The notes below the pieces were generated by a model, which was not told the origin of the DNA, did no database searches, and saw only the letters and a list, made by a program, of their open reading frames with translations. A stretch of DNA of 64,000 nucleotides from a virus (lineage: Duplodnaviria > Heunggongvirae > Uroviricota > Caudoviricetes): IMG/VR virus record IMGVR_UViG_3300027708_003081; one strand, given 5' to 3'. Below are positions 122 to 52,847 of the stretch, in pieces. Both the position numbers and the translations under genes were made by a program. Positions within the stretch are counted from its first letter, which is position 1; every line of letters begins with the position of its first letter.

Positions 122-451
122 TTAAATGTTTTTCCACCTAAAAAAGTCATATGTTTCTCTAAAATCAGGTGTGATTCCCTCCAACTCTAAATGTTGTTCC
201 ACCCAGTCTTTTATAAGTTGTTTAGTTTCATCATAATCTAACGAAAACATATTTGATATATTACGCCAAATTGAGAATGGAACTCTCATCTCACCTGATT
301 TTTCCAATTCTAACATCACCTCATCATCTTTTTTCCAAAATTTAGAGTGCTTATATTTTGCCGATTCAACTTCATACATATCCCCAAATAAGTAATCCAA
401 ATACTTAAACTCTAATTTCCTCATTTGATTCTCTGTTATTAAAATCTTCAT
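122..451 (-). CDS. MKxxITENQ-family paralogue 1, with a C-terminal repeat-spacer-encoded tail
   Basis: ORF track; highly similar to 492-794, 835-1200, 1205-1534 and the N-terminal half of 49628-50431. Confidence 0.85.
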   Translation of the reverse strand: MKILITENQMRKLEFKYLDYLFGDMYEVESAKYKHSKFWKKDDEVMLELEKSGEMRVPFSIWRNISNMFSLDYDETKQLIKDWVEQHLELEGITPDFRETYDFFRWKNI

Positions 452-491
452 AATTTTTATATTAAACGTTGTTCCACCTATAAACGTAAAG

Positions 492-794
492 TTAAATTGG
501 TATTAAGGGTATAATTCCCTCCAATTCTAAATGTTGTTCCACCCATTCCTTTATAAGTTGTTGTACTTCATAAGAATCCAATGAAAACATATTTTTAATA
601 TCTTTCCAAATTCTATTTGAAACATACAACCTACCTGATTTTTCCAATTCTAACAATATCTCCTTATTATCTTTTATAAAATATCTTACATCAGGATATT
701 TTTTTGATTCCACTTCATACATATCCTCAAATAAGTAATCCAAATACTTAAACTCCAATCTTCTCATTTGATTTTCTGTTATTAAAAACTTCAT
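492..794 (-). CDS. MKxxITENQ-family paralogue 2
   Basis: ORF track; its stop codon lies inside the 29-nt spacer. Confidence 0.85.
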   Translation of the reverse strand: MKFLITENQMRRLEFKYLDYLFEDMYEVESKKYPDVRYFIKDNKEILLELEKSGRLYVSNRIWKDIKNMFSLDSYEVQQLIKEWVEQHLELEGIIPLIPI

Positions 795-834
795 AATTTT
801 TATATTAAACGTTGTTCCACCTATAAACGTAAAG

Positions 835-1200
835 TTAAATTGGTATTAAGGGTATAATTCCCACCAACCCTAAACGTTGTTCCATCAAAGTCATGCCAGT
901 CTTGATTAAGCTGTTGGGTGTGACCCCCACCAACCCTAAACGTTGTTCCATCCAGTCTTTTATAAGTTGTTGAGTTTCATAATAATTTAATGAAAACATA
1001 TTGGAAATATCACTCCAAATTGAACGTAAAACCCACAAATCACCTGATTTTTCCAATTCTAACATCACCTCATCATCTTTTTTCCAAAATTTAGAGTGCT
1101 TATATTTTGCCGATTCAACTTCATATATGTCATCAAATAAGTAATTCAAATACTTAAACTCCAATCTTCTCATTTGATTTTCTGTTATAATGTATTTCAT
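835..1200 (-). CDS. MKxxITENQ-family paralogue 3, with two repeat units
   Basis: ORF track; MEQRLGLVG(V/I)(T/I)P occurs twice, 22 aa apart. Confidence 0.85.
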   Translation of the reverse strand: MKYIITENQMRRLEFKYLNYLFDDIYEVESAKYKHSKFWKKDDEVMLELEKSGDLWVLRSIWSDISNMFSLNYYETQQLIKDWMEQRLGLVGVTPNSLIKTGMTLMEQRLGLVGIIPLIPI

Positions 1201-1204
1201 AATT

Positions 1205-1534
1205 TTAAATGTTGTTCCACCACCAGGATAATTTGGGTTCGGCAGGCGGTGGTGTGATTCCCCCCAATTCTAAATGTTGTTCCACCCATTCCTTTATAAG
1301 TTGTTGAGTTTCGCGATTTTCCAAAGAAAACATATTGGAAATATCATTCCAAATTGAATGTAAAACCCATAATCTGTCTAATTTTACCAATTCTAATACA
1401 ACCTTATCACCTTTCTTCCAAAATCTAGAATTAGGATAATGTTTTGACTTAACTTCATACATATCCCCAAATAAGTAATCCAAATACTTAAACTCCAATC
1501 TTCTCATTTGATTTTCTGTTATTAAAAACTTCAT
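1205..1534 (-). CDS. MKxxITENQ-family paralogue 4
   Basis: ORF track; TATTTATA motif just upstream (1539-1546, minus strand). Confidence 0.85.
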   Translation of the reverse strand: MKFLITENQMRRLEFKYLDYLFGDMYEVKSKHYPNSRFWKKGDKVVLELVKLDRLWVLHSIWNDISNMFSLENRETQQLIKEWVEQHLELGGITPPPAEPKLSWWWNNI

Positions 1535-1772: not shown

Positions 1773-2363
1773 TTAGTTTATTATTTTGAATTTATGTTTG
1801 TAACAAGTTTTACGAATACATTTACTTTTTCCACCACAATTGACTTCTTTACCTCTTAAACTACTTGATAATTTCATTCTAATATTCCTTAAACTTGCTT
1901 TAGTAAATCCATTATCATATAAATAGTTTGCAGCCTCAAATAAAGTTTCAAATATATATTCTCTTTCAGTTTCTATATTTATTAATGCAAATTTTTCAAA
2001 ATTATTATTTTTCTTTAAATTATATTTTGAAAGTTGAATCTTGGTTTTGTCTGTTAATACATTTCTTCTACTATTACTAACAAGACATAAATTATATCCA
2101 AATTTCATATCGTTAGTTTTATTTTCTATAATATAATAATTTTCTTTTTCAACTAAATCTTTTTTATCGCACATTTCTATAATATCAAAAATAAAATTTT
2201 CTTTACCATCTCTATCATAAGAACTCTGAAGGAATTTATTATCGTGAATTTTTTTTTGTAACATCCAAAAATGTTTTTCTTTTCTTTTTTTAATATTCAC
2301 AGAACTTCCTATGTATATTTTATTATTTTTGGTGTTAGTTATTTTATATATTCCGCATCCCAT
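1773..2363 (-). mobile_element. Free-standing GIY-YIG homing endonuclease
   Basis: N-terminal GIYKITN...KIYIGSS motif followed by R...H, typical of phage Seg-like enzymes. Confidence 0.85.
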
Positions 2364-12309: not shown

Positions 12310-12381
12310 AGTGGCGTAGAGCAGTGGTAGCTCACTAGGCTCATAACCTAGGGGTCATTGGTTCGAATCCAATCGCCGCAA
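12310..12381 (+). tRNA. trnM: tRNA-Met (CAT), initiator-like, CCA not encoded
   Basis: Cloverleaf AGTGGCG / GAGC-AGTGGTA-GCTC / CTAGG-CTCATAA-CCTAG / ATTGG-TTCGAAT-CCAAT / CGCCGCA-A; the 1:72 pair is mismatched as in initiator tRNAs. Confidence 0.9.
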
Positions 12382-12403
12382 CAAAAAAAAGTTTTAAAAA
12401 AGA

Positions 12404-12734: not shown

Positions 12735-13605
12735 AAATATTATCCATTCAGGATGTTGATGATGAGACCTTCGGGTTGATTCTGAGATAACTGATAAAAG
12801 GTAATTGGCCGTATATGGTCATTAAATAAACCACGAAAGTGGCTTAAAGTGATTCACCTTGGTTTAGGTGGGTTGCGGCATCGGTAACGGTGCTTGAGTA
12901 TACAAGCGAGATATCGTTTAACCTTAGTACCCGAGGGTAACACTGTAGGGGAGTTGGTTAGATGGATTGGCGATGTGGGTCGTCAGTTTGAGGTGGGAAC
13001 ACCAATAAGAATAACTCGTAGAGTTAATGCAAAACATAGGGTTATCCGACTCTACTATTGCGTAACTCAGTATTAAAGTTGATTTAAAACCGAAAGGTAA
13101 GTTGGAGTACAGGTGGTGCTGTTACCAACCCTGACACGTCTCTACCAAGAGCGTCTCACTGAAGTTGACTTGAAATATGGAGGTAGGGATACTTCATAAG
13201 GGAGTTTAGTATTTGGTTGTTCAAAAGATAACTGAGCTAGCGACGGACCGCTTCCTTTTCCATCCACAAACCACTAAAACTTTGAATAAATTAATTCATA
13301 ATTAAATCAATCAAGGAAAAGTGTCCGTCAGTCGGAAATGAAAGATGACTACATAGTCGTGAGTTGTTCACGGCCACAAAGGTTCCCAAGACTAATGTGA
13401 TTTTTATGAAAGTCTTCTAGTCCCGCAAGGACTAATCAGGGTGGCAACCTTGAGGAGTGATGAGTAGTAAGAGAGTATTTTTCGACTTAAAGTGTGATTG
13501 ACTTTATCAATCGTCATTAAGATTTACTTTTCAAAAGAAAGTGGAAACGAAGGGAAACAATAATCCTTCTAAAGAATCTTACAAGATGGTGTATTCTCAA
13601 CCTTT
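12735..13605 (+). ncRNA. Large ornate non-coding RNA (GOLLD/ROOL-class candidate; boundaries approximate)
   Basis: About 870 nt, more G/C-rich than the flanks, with no credible ORF. Hairpins include ACC-TTCG-GGT, CCAC-GAAA-GTGG (12831-12842), GCATCG-GTAA-CGGTGC (12878-12893), ACC-GAAA-GGT (13089-13098), TAGTCC-CGCAA-GGACTA (13418-13434) and GATTGA-CTTTA-TCAATC (13496-13512). Long-range stem GACGGAC/GTCCGTC. Adjacent to a tRNA. Confidence 0.75.
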
Positions 13606-49549: not shown

Positions 49550-49627
49550 TATGTTAATAAATTTTTTGATTATTATGGGAGTTCTTGTTATATTTGCAAT
49601 TATTGATTTAATTAAATTTAAGAAAAA

Positions 49628-50431
49628 ATGAAAGATAGATTAAGAAAAGTTCAGTTTAAGTATTTGGATTACTTGTTTGAGAATATATGTTGGGTTAAAT
49701 CAAAAAATTATCCTAATTCTACCTTCTTCAAAAAAGATGATAAGGTGATATTGGAATTGGAAAATTCTGGTACATTATGGGTTTTATATTCAGTTTGGAA
49801 TAGTATTTCTGATACATTTTCTATTCAATACGAAGAAACTCAACAACTTATAAAGGAATGGATGGAAGCACAATTAAAATTGGGGGAAGTTGCACCGAGT
49901 CGTGATGCGGAAGAATATTGCATCGAGGTGGAATCTCAATTAAAACAGGTGGAAATTACGCCCACGAATTGTTTATATAGTAAAAAATCTTGGATAGAAG
50001 CACAATTAAAATCTGCGGAAGTTACACCACATACCAGTATTACAAATCAATTGATGAGGGTGCAAGAAGAATTAAACTCGGTGGAAGTTACACCACATTC
50101 ATTGTTTTTATTTTCGGGCTCTGATATGGAAGAAGAATTAAAATCGCAGGAAATTACACCTGTTGGGCGGTGGCTAAGGATTTCATACGAGACGGAAAAA
50201 GAATTAAAATCGGAGGAAGTGACACCAAGAAACGCCATAGCACCACCATATAGTTGGACAAACTTAAAATCAGAGGAAATAAAACCTACAATATCAACTT
50301 CTTATCGGTTAGAAGAAAAATTAAAATCAGAGGAAATAAAACCTGTTAAATTTTATGAAACCGAATTACAGTTTTTGGAAGAACAATTAAAACAGGAGAT
50401 ATTAAAATTTAATAAGAATGAAAAAAAATAA
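49628..50431 (+). CDS. Fifth paralogue of the 122-1534 family, with a nine-unit repeat-spacer C-terminal tail
   Basis: FKYLDYLF...LELE.SG.LWV...ETQQLIKEW core; ExxLKSxE(V/I)TP every 22 aa; host-type promoter at 49565-49596. Confidence 0.85.
   Translation: MKDRLRKVQFKYLDYLFENICWVKSKNYPNSTFFKKDDKVILELENSGTLWVLYSVWNSISDTFSIQYEETQQLIKEWMEAQLKLGEVAPSRDAEEYCIEVESQLKQVEITPTNCLYSKKSWIEAQLKSAEVTPHTSITNQLMRVQEELNSVEVTPHSLFLFSGSDMEEELKSQEITPVGRWLRISYETEKELKSEEVTPRNAIAPPYSWTNLKSEEIKPTISTSYRLEEKLKSEEIKPVKFYETELQFLEEQLKQEILKFNKNEKK
49861..50396 (+). CRISPR. In-frame, degenerate CRISPR-like array (36-nt repeat with mostly 30-nt unique spacers)
   Basis: Repeats start at 49861, 49927, 49993, 50059, 50125, 50191, 50251, 50308 and 50374 (partial). 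Spacer lengths are 30, 30, 30, 30, 30, 24, 21 and 30 nt. The first repeat is GATGGAAGCACAATTAAAATTGGGGGAAGTTGCACC. Confidence 0.5.
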
Positions 50432-50537
50432 TTGGGATATTGGGTTGGTATATTTTTTATTATTCGCGGCGGCATCCATATTTTTTGGTGCAACCGTTCA
50501 AGTCATATATGAATTTTTAACTCGTAAATAAAAAGTT

Positions 50538-50779: not shown

Positions 50780-51913
50780 ATGGAAAATGTTAACAGTTGC
50801 GCTTATGTCGCAAAGATAGATGAAATAAAAGAAATCGTTGGTGCAGATAAAATAGAACAAGCCCGCATCGGTGGATGGAATTGCATCATCCAAAAGGGAG
50901 AATATAATGTTGGTGATTTGGTTGTTGTTGCAACCACCGATGCGGTTATACCCGAGAGTTTATCTGACGCAATGAACGTAACCAACTATCTCCGTAAGGG
51001 ACAGAGGGTTAGGACTGTAAAGTTAAGAGGTGTGTATAGTGAGTGTTTGATTATTCCATTCAGTTATGTTCCTACTCGTACTAAAGGTGTATATTACGAA
51101 GGGGACGATGTGATGGAAATTTTAAAGATTTTCAAGTATGAACCACCAGTTAAACAAATAACTCTTGGTTCAGGTAGAACAATAAGATATTCGGAAAACC
51201 CGAACTTCTTGGTATATTATAAGTTCCCAAATCAAAAGAACGTTCCTGAAATGTTTAATGAGGAAGATGACGTTCAAATAACAAGGAAGATACACGGAAC
51301 CAATGCGAGATACGGAATCGTTAAGAAGACCAAATTATCTTTATGGGATAAAGTTAAGAAGTTTTTTAGAGTTGCGGATAAATGGATAGATTATGAATTT
51401 GTGGTAGGTTCCCATAATGTTGAGAAAGGTTCTGACTCACAAGGATTTTATGAAACAAATGTTTGGTATGAAATCGCGGACAAATATAACATAAAAGAAA
51501 AGTTATGGAATTTTGTTAAACTTAATTCATTAGAAGACACTGGTTCGGGTATAACATTATATGGTGAAATCTATGGTGCGGGAATACAGAAAGGATATGA
51601 TTATGGTTTGGAAGAGATAAAGTTTGTGGGGTTTGATATAATAATAGATGGTAAATATTTGGATACACTCAATACTAAATTGATATTAACCGACTTTTTA
51701 AGATTACCACACGTAGAAGAATTATATGTCGGTAAATGGAGTAAAGAACTTCAGGATATGTTTGTGGTTAATAATTTCATACCGGGAACCAAGGTACCAC
51801 ACGAAGGTATAGTAGTTAAAAGTACAAGTGGTGAACGTTCCAAAATCTCAAAAGTGATTAACAATGATTATCTTTTGTATGGTGAGAAAAACGAAATAGG
51901 TGATTCACATTAA
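50780..51913 (+). CDS. ATP-dependent RNA ligase, DRB0094/Rnl2-like, with an N-terminal tRNA-binding OB-like domain
   Basis: Motif I KIHGTN, EIYG, FDI, EGIVVK and terminal KVIN; N-terminal I.GADKIE...V.K. Confidence 0.9.
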   Translation: MENVNSCAYVAKIDEIKEIVGADKIEQARIGGWNCIIQKGEYNVGDLVVVATTDAVIPESLSDAMNVTNYLRKGQRVRTVKLRGVYSECLIIPFSYVPTRTKGVYYEGDDVMEILKIFKYEPPVKQITLGSGRTIRYSENPNFLVYYKFPNQKNVPEMFNEEDDVQITRKIHGTNARYGIVKKTKLSLWDKVKKFFRVADKWIDYEFVVGSHNVEKGSDSQGFYETNVWYEIADKYNIKEKLWNFVKLNSLEDTGSGITLYGEIYGAGIQKGYDYGLEEIKFVGFDIIIDGKYLDTLNTKLILTDFLRLPHVEELYVGKWSKELQDMFVVNNFIPGTKVPHEGIVVKSTSGERSKISKVINNDYLLYGEKNEIGDSH

Positions 51914-51964: not shown

Positions 51965-52129
51965 ATGGGAAGATTAAAAAAATATTCTACGGAGGAGGAA
52001 AAAAAAGAAGTCCAAAAAAAATGGGCTAAAGAATATTATTATCGTAACAAAGAAAAAATAAATAAAAAAGCTATGGAAAAATACTATGAATTACAAAAAA
52101 ATTTACAATCAAATAGTCAAGAGGGCTAA
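51965..52129 (+). CDS. Small basic protein (54 aa) preceding the homing endonuclease
   Basis: MGRLKKYSTEEEKKEVQKKWAKEYYYRNKEKINKKAMEKY...; TATTTATA at 51953-51960. Confidence 0.6.
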   Translation: MGRLKKYSTEEEKKEVQKKWAKEYYYRNKEKINKKAMEKYYELQKNLQSNSQEG

Positions 52130-52847
52130 AAGTGAAAACAGATGTAAAAACAATGGGACTTATTATGAATTACATCATATAAAACCTAAATGTTTAGGTG
52201 GTAAAAATAATAAACAAAATTTAGTTTTATTAACCGCAAAAGAACATTTCTTATGTCATAAATTATTAGTTAATATAAACCCAAAAGAAAAAAGTTTAAT
52301 TTTTGCTTTGTGGATGATGTCTAACGGAAGTAATATACTCCGTAACAAGTATTTAAACATCTCGTCAAGGGAGTATGAATATTCGCGTAATTTATATTCC
52401 GAATCAAGAAAAGGATTTACGTATTCTGATGAAAGTAAAAAGAAAATGAGTGAATCACAGAAAAATAAAATTGGTTATAAAAATTCATTTTATGGTGGAA
52501 AACATTCCGAAGAAACAAAAAAGAAAATGTCTGAAAGGGCTAAAAATCGTATAGTTTCCGAAGAAACAAAAAAGAAAATGTCAGTAGTAAGAAAAGGTAA
52601 AAAACATTCAGAACAAGCAAAAATAAATATGTCAAATGCGATGAAAGGAGTTAAAAAAACTCAATCACAAATTGATAAGATTAAAAATAGTAGATTAGGT
52701 AAAAAAAATTCGGAGGAAAGTAAACTAAAAGTATCCGAAAAACTAAAAGGAATTGTCAGGCCAATTTTTACAGAAGAACACAGAAAAAAAATAAGTGAAT
52801 CATTAAAAAAATATCATAAAAAAAATAATATTGGAGATTCTCACTGA
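52086..52847 (+). mobile_element. Free-standing HNH homing endonuclease with NUMOD3 DNA-binding repeats
   Basis: ELHHIKPKCLGG...NLVLLTAKEHFLCH; repeated HSEETKKKMS motifs. Confidence 0.9.

What the first reader, a model, noticed from the sequence alone, without database searches (positions are those of the whole stretch)
49628..50431. A translated CRISPR-like array: nine 36-nt repeats with unique spacers form the protein C-terminus
Seen: after the same core domain as the 122-1534 genes, repeats recur with an exact 66-nt period six times, then at 60, 57 and 66 nt. All spacer lengths are multiples of three and free of in-frame stops. They encode unrelated peptides (SRDAEEYCIE, TNCLYSKKSW, HTSITNQLMR, HSLFLFSGSD, VGRWLRISYE and others), and several look more G/C-rich than the genome. 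The gene-proximal repeat is closest to the family consensus and later repeats drift progressively, like trailer-end decay in CRISPR arrays. Inference: iterative capture of 30-nt foreign fragments at a fixed site in a coding gene, filtered for an open frame. This would be a spacer-acquisition-driven peptide display or diversification system, or a guide/decoy array hidden in an ORF under an early host-type promoter.
Basis: partly seen in the sequence, partly recalled or inferred. Interest (0 to 1): 0.9.

Follow-up and report, generated by a model that had tools for sequence, protein, structure and literature searches.

The report
In-frame repeat-spacer array in phage gene
The tail of this jumbo-phage protein is encoded by a genuine DNA repeat-spacer array (36-nt repeats, 30-nt unrelated inserts) that varies at its gene-proximal end as a CRISPR array does, yet is kept open and translated; I found no description of this combination.

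Summary
ORF 49628-50431 (267 aa) has a folded ~85-aa N-domain followed by nine 36-nt repeats separated by unrelated ~30-nt segments.

Related metagenome loci show the periodicity is a property of the DNA, not only of the protein:
- The repeat block is offset one base from the codon phase.
- Some arrays have seven DNA-identical repeats around unrelated 30-nt spacers.
- Repeats persist after in-frame stops, or are read in another frame.
- Single-unit paralogues (122-1534) end in a half repeat whose sequence tracks their own repeat.

Novel units concentrate at the gene-proximal end, shared units keep their order, and one population lacks exactly 66 nt. The most proximal spacer has a 31-nt exact twin in a non-repeat context in two lake metagenomes.

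The array is also translated. Frame 0 is strongly depleted of stops, shared cassettes give pN/pS ~0.18, and RNA-library contigs cover the gene.

Not supported:
- The spacers are not all unique; most are a repertoire shared between phages.
- No foreign origin was shown.
- No Cas, reverse transcriptase or integrase gene was found.
- No host genome carries this repeat.

Best reading (about 0.55): unit-wise, ruler-like insertion at the DNA level, filtered for an open frame. The agent is unknown.

The parts
49628..50431 (+). ORF of 267 aa: N-domain plus translated repeat-spacer tail
   Evidence: An identical protein occurs on other contigs. RNA-library contigs are identical over 49622-49885 and 50060-50393.
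49628..49860 (+). Conserved N-domain (helix, four strands, two helices). The last helix runs into repeat 1.
   Evidence: AF2 pLDDT is 81-90 over residues 1-80. The paralogue model has pLDDT 87. There is no PDB fold match; only viral hypothetical clusters match. The superfamily has 771 representatives.
49861..49896 (+). Repeat 1 (36 nt in DNA phase, one base ahead of the codon phase)
49897..49926 (+). Spacer 1 (SRDAEEYCIE), a singleton type. A 31-nt identical stretch lies in a second, non-repeat context in runs X2 and X5.
49927..50226 (+). Repeats 2-6 (49927, 49993, 50059, 50125, 50191; 36 nt each), alternating with spacers 2-5 (49963, 50029, 50095, 50161; 30 nt each)
   Evidence: Spacers 3-5 are shared with other phages. 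A relative lacks exactly 66 nt, 50017-50082.
50227..50409 (+). Older, degenerate distal units: S6 50227-50256, 5'-truncated R7 50257-50286, S7 50287-50307, R8 50308-50343, S8 50344-50373, degenerate terminal repeat 50374-50409
   Evidence: These cassette types (RNAIAPPYSW, TISTSYRL, VKFYETELQF) are the most widely shared.
122..1534 (-). Four tandem single- or double-unit paralogues. Each has N-domain + 36-nt repeat (1251-1286, 917-952, 851-886, 508-543, 168-203) + 29-30-nt spacer + 17-nt half repeat (1205-1221, 805-821, 462-478, 122-138).
   Evidence: The half repeat is read out of frame as RWNNI/RWKNI in two genes and lies after the stop codon in the other two.
50417..50531 (+). Conserved 37-aa one-TM peptide gene that overlaps the end of the array ORF (a syntenic neighbour, not part of the array)

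Best explanation
The 3' 570 nt of the gene is a true repeat-spacer array at the DNA level. It has 36-nt direct repeats, offset one base from the codon phase. These are separated by unrelated ~30-nt inserts, and the array ends in degenerate repeats.

In this family of freshwater jumbo-phage genes, units are added next to the N-domain. The process duplicates the repeat and inserts a fragment of about 30 nt (29-32), without regard to reading frame or stop codons. Units are later lost whole by recombination between repeats. Because one unit is 66 nt, an insertion keeps the frame. Selection then retains arrays that stay open, so the array is translated as a string of short helices with variable linkers behind a folded N-domain. 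Old units persist under purifying selection as peptides.

**Shown**
- The architecture is DNA-level and independent of frame.
- Novelty is polar, and units are lost whole.
- The open frame is under selection.
- The locus is present in an RNA library.

**Inferred**
- Units arise by insertion rather than by divergence.
- Fragments are captured from other genes. This rests on one case.
- The agent is unknown. The most likely candidate is a CRISPR-adaptation-type integrase, such as host Cas1-Cas2 acting on a CRISPR-repeat-like site (a 'neo-CRISPR'). I give that about 0.3.

The function of the protein is unknown.
For: 1. In L028, seven repeats are identical over 35-36 nt, except one A/G difference in the fifth copy. 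Their 30-nt spacers are unrelated. The conserved block starts one base before a codon and ends at the second base of Pro.
2. Arrays continue through stops. In L026 (same neighbours as the window), identical repeats flank spacers that read RY**LHHNLP and AFRI*KRFVK. In L005, TAG is followed by an identical repeat.
3. In L010, a full repeat is read in two frames within one ORF (WLGEIYNLGGLTP and WERSIILGDSHL) after a 29-nt spacer.
4. Half repeats lie out of frame or after the stop. The copy census is 56 in the canonical frame, 9 in another frame and 14 after a stop. The half repeat co-varies with its own repeat: Q with N in 19 of 20, E/K with K in 9 of 9, Fisher p 1e-6. L013 has CGA in both, and the gene at 835-1200 has CGT in all three copies.
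5. Spacer lengths are 30 nt (52), 29 (10) and 33/24/21 (few). The 29-nt ones are terminal.
6. Novelty is polar, and shared units are collinear in 96% of comparisons.
7. Gene pairs exist with 96-97% identical N-domain DNA but unrelated spacers.
8. Spacer amino-acid composition fits random translation (r 0.83) better than the phage proteome (r 0.41). Base frequencies are flat across codon positions.
9. Contigs in X2 and X5 branch exactly at the edges of spacer 1 into another, ORF-like context.
10. A relative has an exact 66-nt deletion.
11. Evidence for translation: the frame-0 stop deficit, pN/pS of 0.18 and RNA-library contigs.
Against: - No cas1, reverse transcriptase or integrase was found in the window's neighbourhoods or in 468 kb of related phage records. 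Those records are only 5-64% complete.
- The repeat matches no Rfam CRISPR-DR family. It was not found in representative genomes of 185,579 species.
- It is only ~65% identical to Flavobacteriales 36-nt CRISPR repeats and lacks their GTTG...CAAC ends.
- Four exact IMG/VR scans with single spacers, one array searched against GenBank phages and 400 Flavobacterium genomes, one against related phage records, and all 87 spacers against the fetched loci gave no external match.
- The single protospacer-like case rests on the ends of Logan contigs. I could not retrieve those contigs.
- Much of the pattern could arise another way. Fusion of tandem single-unit paralogues by recombination between a half repeat and the next gene's repeat would also add units proximally and import unfiltered spacers.
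- Repeat/half-repeat co-variation is not corrected for phylogeny.
Confidence: 0.55

Rival explanations
1. This is an ordinary modular repeat protein. An old pool of cassette alleles is shuffled between paralogues and co-infecting phages by homologous recombination in the 36-nt repeats. Nearby homing endonucleases may promote this. Arrays grow when the half repeat of an upstream single-unit gene recombines with the first repeat of the next gene. No new sequence is captured.
For: - [Repeat + spacer] modules are swapped behind nearly identical N-domains.
- Paralogues lie in tandem with conserved junctions.
- The gene at 835-1200 looks like such a fusion, because its second unit equals that of the next gene.
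- Cassette families diverge by point mutation, for example the xAIPPxxW types.
- Shared cassettes give pN/pS of 0.18.
- GIY-YIG and HNH-NUMOD3 endonuclease genes lie nearby.
- The repeats encode an amphipathic helix segment.
Against: - It does not explain where unrelated 30-nt segments of fixed length come from.
- It does not explain their random-like composition.
- It does not explain the 29-32-nt spread irrespective of frame.
- It does not explain the repeat block being out of codon phase.
- It does not explain the 31-nt twin of spacer 1 in a non-repeat context.
Confidence: 0.27
2. The array works as RNA. Repeat-spacer units in the mRNA are processed or bound by a host Cas effector, for example type VI-B Cas13b or II-C of Bacteroidota. 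They act as decoys (Racr-like) or as guides against rivals. Translation only protects or accompanies the transcript. This reading is compatible with the best explanation for how the array arose.
For: - The 36-nt repeat and 30-nt spacer geometry equals that of Flavobacteriales arrays found.
- Three repeat subfamilies are ~65% identical to those repeats, which places them in the top 0.15-0.5% of random phage 36-mers.
- Each spacer is inherited with its downstream repeat variant, which is the order in a Cas13b crRNA (from my own knowledge).
- The phage carries Bacteroidota features (earlier notes).
- The region is present in a metatranscriptome.
Against: - Repeat ends are GGTG/GATG...CACC, not GTTG...CAAC.
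- No near-identical host repeat exists in 185,579 species' genomes.
- There is no Rfam hit.
- Synonymous changes accumulate about five times faster than non-synonymous ones in shared spacers. That points to selection on peptides, not on guide sequence.
- No targets were found.
Confidence: 0.1
3. The gene encodes a multi-core peptide precursor (RiPP-like, as in cyanobactin PatE): a conserved leader domain and recognition sequences that flank hypervariable ~10-aa cores, which are excised or modified.
For: - The layout is constant-variable-constant, with a strictly conserved 'TP' before each variable 10-mer and 1-13 cassettes per gene.
- Many tandem paralogues carry different cores.
Against: - No protease or modifying enzyme lies in the conserved neighbourhood.
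- Cores contain stops or are followed by frame-shifted repeats.
- The 'follower' motif WNNI is merely the repeat read out of frame.
- Core composition is random-like with no positional pattern.
Confidence: 0.03
4. The variable segments are produced by targeted hypermutation (a diversity-generating retroelement or similar) of one ancestral segment.
For: Sharp boundaries between invariant flanks and variable 30-nt segments.
Against: - No reverse transcriptase was found in related records.
- No template copy was found in 415 kb of loci.
- The segments differ at all positions and in G+C content (0.21-0.55), not at adenines only.
- Each type is stable across phages.
Confidence: 0.01

Closest known systems
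CRISPR arrays, including virus-borne orphan mini-arrays (Medvedeva et al. 2019, PMC6858448) and solitary repeat units / RNA anti-CRISPRs (Camara-Wilpert et al. 2023, PMC10651486)
   Same: - 36-nt direct repeats and ~30-nt unique spacers of near-constant length.
- Identical repeats at one end and degenerate repeats at the other.
- Polar novelty, collinear shared units and whole-unit deletions.
- Minimal form of repeat-spacer-truncated repeat.
- Carried by a virus without cas genes nearby.
   Different: - It lies inside an ORF, continuous with a folded protein domain that sits where a leader would be.
- Frame 0 is selected to stay open, and old spacers evolve as peptides.
- The repeat matches no known or host CRISPR repeat.
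- No targets are known.
Neo-CRISPR formation by off-target Cas1-Cas2 integration (Nivala et al. 2018, recalled from my own knowledge; the term appears in 10.1101/148544)
   Same: Integration at a repeat-like non-CRISPR site duplicates the target and inserts a fixed-length fragment. That would create repeat-spacer-repeat inside a gene.
   Different: That was shown only in E. coli experiments. Here the event would be recurrent and heritable in a lytic phage gene family, and no integrase has been identified.
Tandem-repeat proteins mis-called as CRISPRs ('false-CRISPRs', Zhang & Ye 2017, PMC5294841), and spurious proteins translated from CRISPR arrays (PMC7673337, title and abstract only)
   Same: A repeat-spacer-like periodicity that coincides with an ORF.
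   Different: - False-CRISPRs are defined by lack of spacer diversity; here the spacers are unrelated.
- Spurious translations are not conserved or selected; here frame 0 is enriched for open spacers and pN/pS is 0.18.
Multi-cassette RiPP precursors such as cyanobactin PatE (from my own knowledge)
   Same: Conserved flanks at the DNA level around hypervariable short cassettes, with a variable number of cassettes.
   Different: There are no maturation enzymes. The flanks are conserved irrespective of reading frame, and cassettes can carry stops.

Membership tests
CRISPR array | Near-identical direct repeats of 23-47 nt at regular spacing | tested here: met
   The repeats are 36 nt. They are identical in L028, L026 and the proximal part of L005, and 61-87% identical within the window's older array.
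CRISPR array | Spacers mutually unrelated and of near-constant length | tested here: met
   52 of 87 distinct spacers are 30 nt (range 20-39). No positional pattern or similarity was seen between types.
CRISPR array | Associated cas genes (adjacent or elsewhere in the genome) | tested here: inconclusive
   None lie within ~10 kb of the array in the three loci with gene tables, nor among the ten window neighbours scanned against Pfam. Cas1 is absent from five related phage records, but these are 5-64% complete. The other ~194 kb of this genome and the host could not be searched.
CRISPR array | Spacers derive from protospacers in other DNA | tested here: inconclusive
   There is one candidate: spacer 1 has a 31-nt twin in another context in two runs. 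All other searches were negative.
CRISPR array | Non-coding, preceded by an AT-rich non-coding leader | tested here: not met
   The array is in frame with a conserved protein domain. Stops are depleted in frame 0 (8 of 87 spacers against 41-42 in the other frames), and pN/pS is 0.18.
CRISPR array | Polar (leader-end) acquisition with conserved trailer-end spacers | tested here: met
   Singleton types make up 31% and 20% of positions 1 and 2, against 2-8% later. Order is 96% concordant, and proximal repeats are identical. This is indirect evidence from comparison, not an observed event.
Virus-borne mini-CRISPR array / Racr solitary repeat | Repeat (near-)identical to a CRISPR repeat of the host | tested here: not met
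   No match was found in 185,579 species' genomes with two degenerate patterns or in Rfam. The best similarity to Flavobacteriales 36-nt repeats is ~65%. The host is unknown.
Solenoid / tandem-repeat protein | Units homologous over their whole length and folding into a regular repeat structure | tested here: not met
   Only 12 of the 22 residues are alignable. AF2 gives isolated helices with loops below pLDDT 50 and pTM 0.38. The same repeat DNA is read in two frames. The alignment was shallow, so a regular fold is not excluded.
RiPP multi-core precursor | Co-located maturation enzymes; cores always in frame between recognition sequences | tested here: not met
   The neighbours are an RNA ligase, homing endonucleases and proteins without Pfam hits. 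Cores carry stops or frameshifts.
Diversity-generating retroelement target | Reverse transcriptase plus a template repeat; adenine-specific changes | tested here: not met
   No RVT_1 hit was found in related records and no template copy in the loci. The variation is not adenine-specific.

The most novel reading that the evidence does not exclude
A phage gene family uses CRISPR-type, ruler-based spacer integration as a generator of protein diversity. Fragments of ~30 nt from other genes are inserted at a fixed site next to a conserved domain. They are screened for an open frame and then kept as new peptide modules. This would be an acquisition-driven, heritable peptide-display or diversification system. 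It would also be a natural example of arrays being born inside genes.
Probability: 0.22. Interest if true: 0.97.

Novelty: new variant of a known kind. Interest (0 to 1): 0.85.

Why it matters
If the units really arise by insertion, three things follow.
- This would be the first natural case of a repeat-spacer array that is built and maintained inside a translated gene. It would link the integration chemistry of CRISPR adaptation, or an unknown analogue, to protein evolution.
- It would give a testable natural model for how CRISPR arrays can be born at repeat-like sites.
- It would reveal a new layer of phage-host or phage-phage conflict in freshwater Bacteroidota jumbo phages.

Under the more ordinary recombination reading, the family is still unusual, because its conserved repeat is kept as DNA regardless of reading frame. 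There is a practical point too. Gene callers and CRISPR finders will each mis-file these loci, as 'hypothetical protein' or as 'false CRISPR'.

Tried and rejected
**Family and homology searches**
- Pfam and PHROGs scans of the five window proteins gave nothing significant.
- GenBank phages gave no hit by DNA or by protein.
- No whole genome is held for this window.

**Fold searches on the N-domain**
- Foldseek against PDB gave no match. VIA-wide gave a best Z of 4.6. AFDB, BFVD and Atlas returned only uncharacterised viral proteins.

**CRISPR-repeat searches**
- Rfam returned no CRISPR-DR family, at E up to 1 on three loci and at gathering threshold on the window.
- A degenerate repeat pattern against all species' genomes gave 0 hits. 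A two-core pattern gave 5 chance hits.

**Protospacer searches (all at chance level or empty)**
- Local loci, 415 kb.
- GenBank phages.
- Four exact 22-24-mers in IMG/VR.
- 400 Flavobacterium genomes.
- Five related phage records.
- The reverse test, host-array spacers against the phage loci, also gave nothing.
- The second context of spacer 1 was not found in the loci, in IMG/VR or in earlier notes.

**Other negatives**
- Cas1 and RVT_1 were not found in related records.
- An exact string for a Cas13b repeat recalled from memory is in no held paper. I replaced it with real arrays.
- The promoter scan was not above shuffles.
- RNA contig ends at repeats cannot be read as processing sites, because Logan contigs break at repeats.
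- The literature searches found no description of translated repeat-spacer arrays.

**Rejected**
- DGR, RiPP precursor and solenoid readings, for the reasons given under the rival explanations.

Full report
**What is there**

ORF 49628-50431 (+) encodes 267 aa. Residues 1-85 form a domain shared with four tandem genes on the minus strand at 122-1534, at 45-51% identity. AlphaFold models this domain confidently as helix, four strands and two helices: pLDDT is 81-90 here and 87 for a 109-aa paralogue. It has no solved-structure relative; Foldseek gave nothing and the best VIA Z was 4.6. It matches only uncharacterised viral proteins. A profile search finds 771 representatives at 50% clustering, most of them 100-130 aa.

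Behind the domain lie nine repeats. Six sit at exact 66-nt spacing, followed by steps of 60, 57 and 66 nt, with unrelated segments between them.

The window belongs to a ~258-kb contig. Relatives are freshwater metagenome contigs of 36-320 kb. They share the same local gene order: a 190-aa protein, the array gene, a 37-aa membrane peptide and an RNA ligase.

**The periodicity belongs to the DNA**

I fetched 40 related loci and mapped repeat copies with a nucleotide profile.

- *Identical repeats, unrelated spacers.* In L028, seven repeats are identical over 35-36 nt, except one A/G difference in the fifth copy, while the seven 30-nt segments between them are unrelated. The conserved block begins one base before a codon and ends at the second base of the Pro codon, so its edges ignore codon boundaries.
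- *Arrays run through stops.* L026 is the orthologous locus of a close relative. There, two proximal spacers read RY**LHHNLP and AFRI*KRFVK between identical repeats, followed by conserved distal units. In L005 a TAG ends spacer 1 and an identical repeat follows.
- *One repeat, two frames.* In a distant subfamily (L010, 34% identity), a 29-nt spacer shifts the frame. The next full repeat is then translated as WERSIILGDSHL instead of WLGEIYNLGGLTP, within the same ORF.
- *Half repeats.* The single-unit genes, including those at 122-1534, end with repeat, a 29-30-nt spacer and a 17-nt half repeat. The half repeat is read out of frame, which yields the 'conserved' C-terminus RWNNI, or it lies after the stop codon. 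Among copies assigned to a family gene, 56 are in the canonical frame, 9 in another frame and 14 after a stop.
- *Co-variation.* The half repeat tracks its own repeat. Repeat codon Q pairs with N in 19 of 20 genes, and E/K with K in 9 of 9 (Fisher p 1e-6, not corrected for phylogeny). A rare CGA in L013 and CGT in the gene at 835-1200 occur in every copy within the gene.
- *Spacer lengths.* They are 30 nt (52 of 87), 29 (10, terminal) and a few of 21-39.

**How arrays differ between phages**

Sixty-seven multi-unit homologues carry about 100 cassette types. Many are shared: HTSITNQLMR occurs in 10, LDAGSNYLPF in 24 and the RNAIAPP type in 44. Types seen in only one array make up 31% and 20% of positions 1 and 2 next to the N-domain, against 2-8% further on (Spearman p 8e-13). 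The relative order of shared types is concordant in 905 of 946 comparisons.

Gene pairs with 96-97% identical N-domain DNA can carry unrelated spacers, so gradual divergence cannot explain the differences. In run X8, a relative lacks exactly 66 nt and has other unit-level rearrangements.

**Origin of the spacers**

Spacer amino-acid composition follows random translation of their base composition (r 0.83), not the phage proteome (r 0.41). Base frequencies are flat across codon positions, and there is no positional residue pattern. G+C is 0.38, somewhat above own-genome 30-mers filtered for an open frame (0.346, p 0.008).

In two DNA runs from different years, contigs branch exactly at 49896 and 49926. 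Beyond these points they continue into unrelated, phage-like AT-rich sequence. So 31 nt, equal to spacer 1 in DNA phase plus one base, sit in a second context. The composite reads VGQIVCFPKASRDAEEYCIEQLNDYKKQI in the same frame as the array. I could not retrieve that locus. I therefore treat it as a single, indirect protospacer-like case.

All other spacer searches were negative.

**It is translated**

Only 8 of 87 distinct spacers have a stop in frame 0. The counts are 42 and 41 in the other forward frames and 31-36 in the reverse frames. About 45% of random own-genome 30-mers would carry a stop. Shared cassettes give pS 0.33 and pN 0.06, from a small set of non-independent pairs. Contigs from a lake metatranscriptome are identical to 49622-49885 and 50060-50393. 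DNA carry-over in that library cannot be excluded.

AlphaFold sees the tail as short helices that span the end of each spacer and the repeat, separated by low-confidence loops. It does not predict a solenoid.

**Relation to CRISPR**

The geometry (36 + 30 nt) equals that of real arrays I found in Flavobacteriales genomes. Three repeat subfamilies are about 65% identical to those repeats, which places them in the top 0.15-0.5% of random phage 36-mers. This is a lead, not membership, for four reasons.
- The ends are not GTTG...CAAC.
- Rfam gives no hit.
- No genome of 185,579 species carries the repeat.
- No Cas1 or reverse transcriptase is present in 468 kb of incomplete related records or in the neighbourhoods.

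The array fails the 'non-coding with leader' criterion outright.

**Verdict**

I hold with high confidence that this is a frame-independent DNA repeat-spacer architecture, embedded in and selected as coding sequence.

I hold with moderate confidence (about 0.55) that it grows by ruler-like insertion of new ~30-nt fragments at the gene-proximal end. The main rival (0.27) is recombination-only shuffling, with fusion of tandem single-unit paralogues. That would reproduce the polarity and the unfiltered proximal units. It would not explain the origin, fixed length, out-of-phase edges or random-like composition of the spacers, nor the twin of spacer 1.

The agent and the function of the protein remain unknown. 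I found no paper that describes such arrays.

An earlier first-stage note of this scan (e1-5398675) reported the same architecture in the tandem genes at 122-1534 of this window. It gave me the half-repeat lead, which I verified.

Noticed in passing
window 13197-13603 (+), with tRNA-Met at 12310-12382: Rfam places a GOLLD RNA here (324.9 bits against a gathering score of 150), next to a phage tRNA-Met. This settles an earlier first-stage note that guessed 'GOLLD/ROOL-like or new'.
   Followed up: partly
window 49552-49632 and 50417-50531 (+): Two tiny one-TM peptide genes flank the array gene: MLINFLIIMGVLVIF... (26 aa) and MKKNNWDIGLVYFLLFAAAS... (37 aa). The second overlaps the end of the array ORF and is conserved in relatives (L002, L003, L026).
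   Followed up: no
window 50780-51913 (+) and orthologous loci L001-L004, L026: An RNA ligase (PHA02142 OB-fold + RNA_ligase domains) is the conserved downstream neighbour of the array gene in every relative seen. Any functional link is untested.
   Followed up: no
window 1773-2363 (-) and 52086-52847 (+): A GIY-YIG (SegE-like) and an HNH-NUMOD3 homing endonuclease gene each lie beside one of the two family loci. They could promote local gene conversion.
   Followed up: no
L005 10295-10303: In this relative, the TAG that ends spacer 1 is followed directly by the ATG of the next repeat (TAGATG). The rest of the array could then be made as a separate protein by re-initiation.
   Followed up: no
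window 23685-48199 (+): A run of very large ORFs (880-2320 aa) with long Pro/Thr-rich linkers encoded by ACN-rich repeats and leucine-rich-repeat-like ends. They produce most of the 274 tandem-repeat rows.
   Followed up: no
L010 9002-11600: A distant subfamily has a longer N-domain and its own repeat. In one case it is fused behind a superoxide-dismutase-like segment in a 408-aa ORF. I did not examine the fusion.
   Followed up: no
window 49949-50095 (-): The terminator scan flags three short hairpins on the minus strand inside repeats 2-4 (GGTG...CACC-type stems), against 0.5 expected. The stem is not conserved in other repeats, so I did not interpret it.
   Followed up: partly
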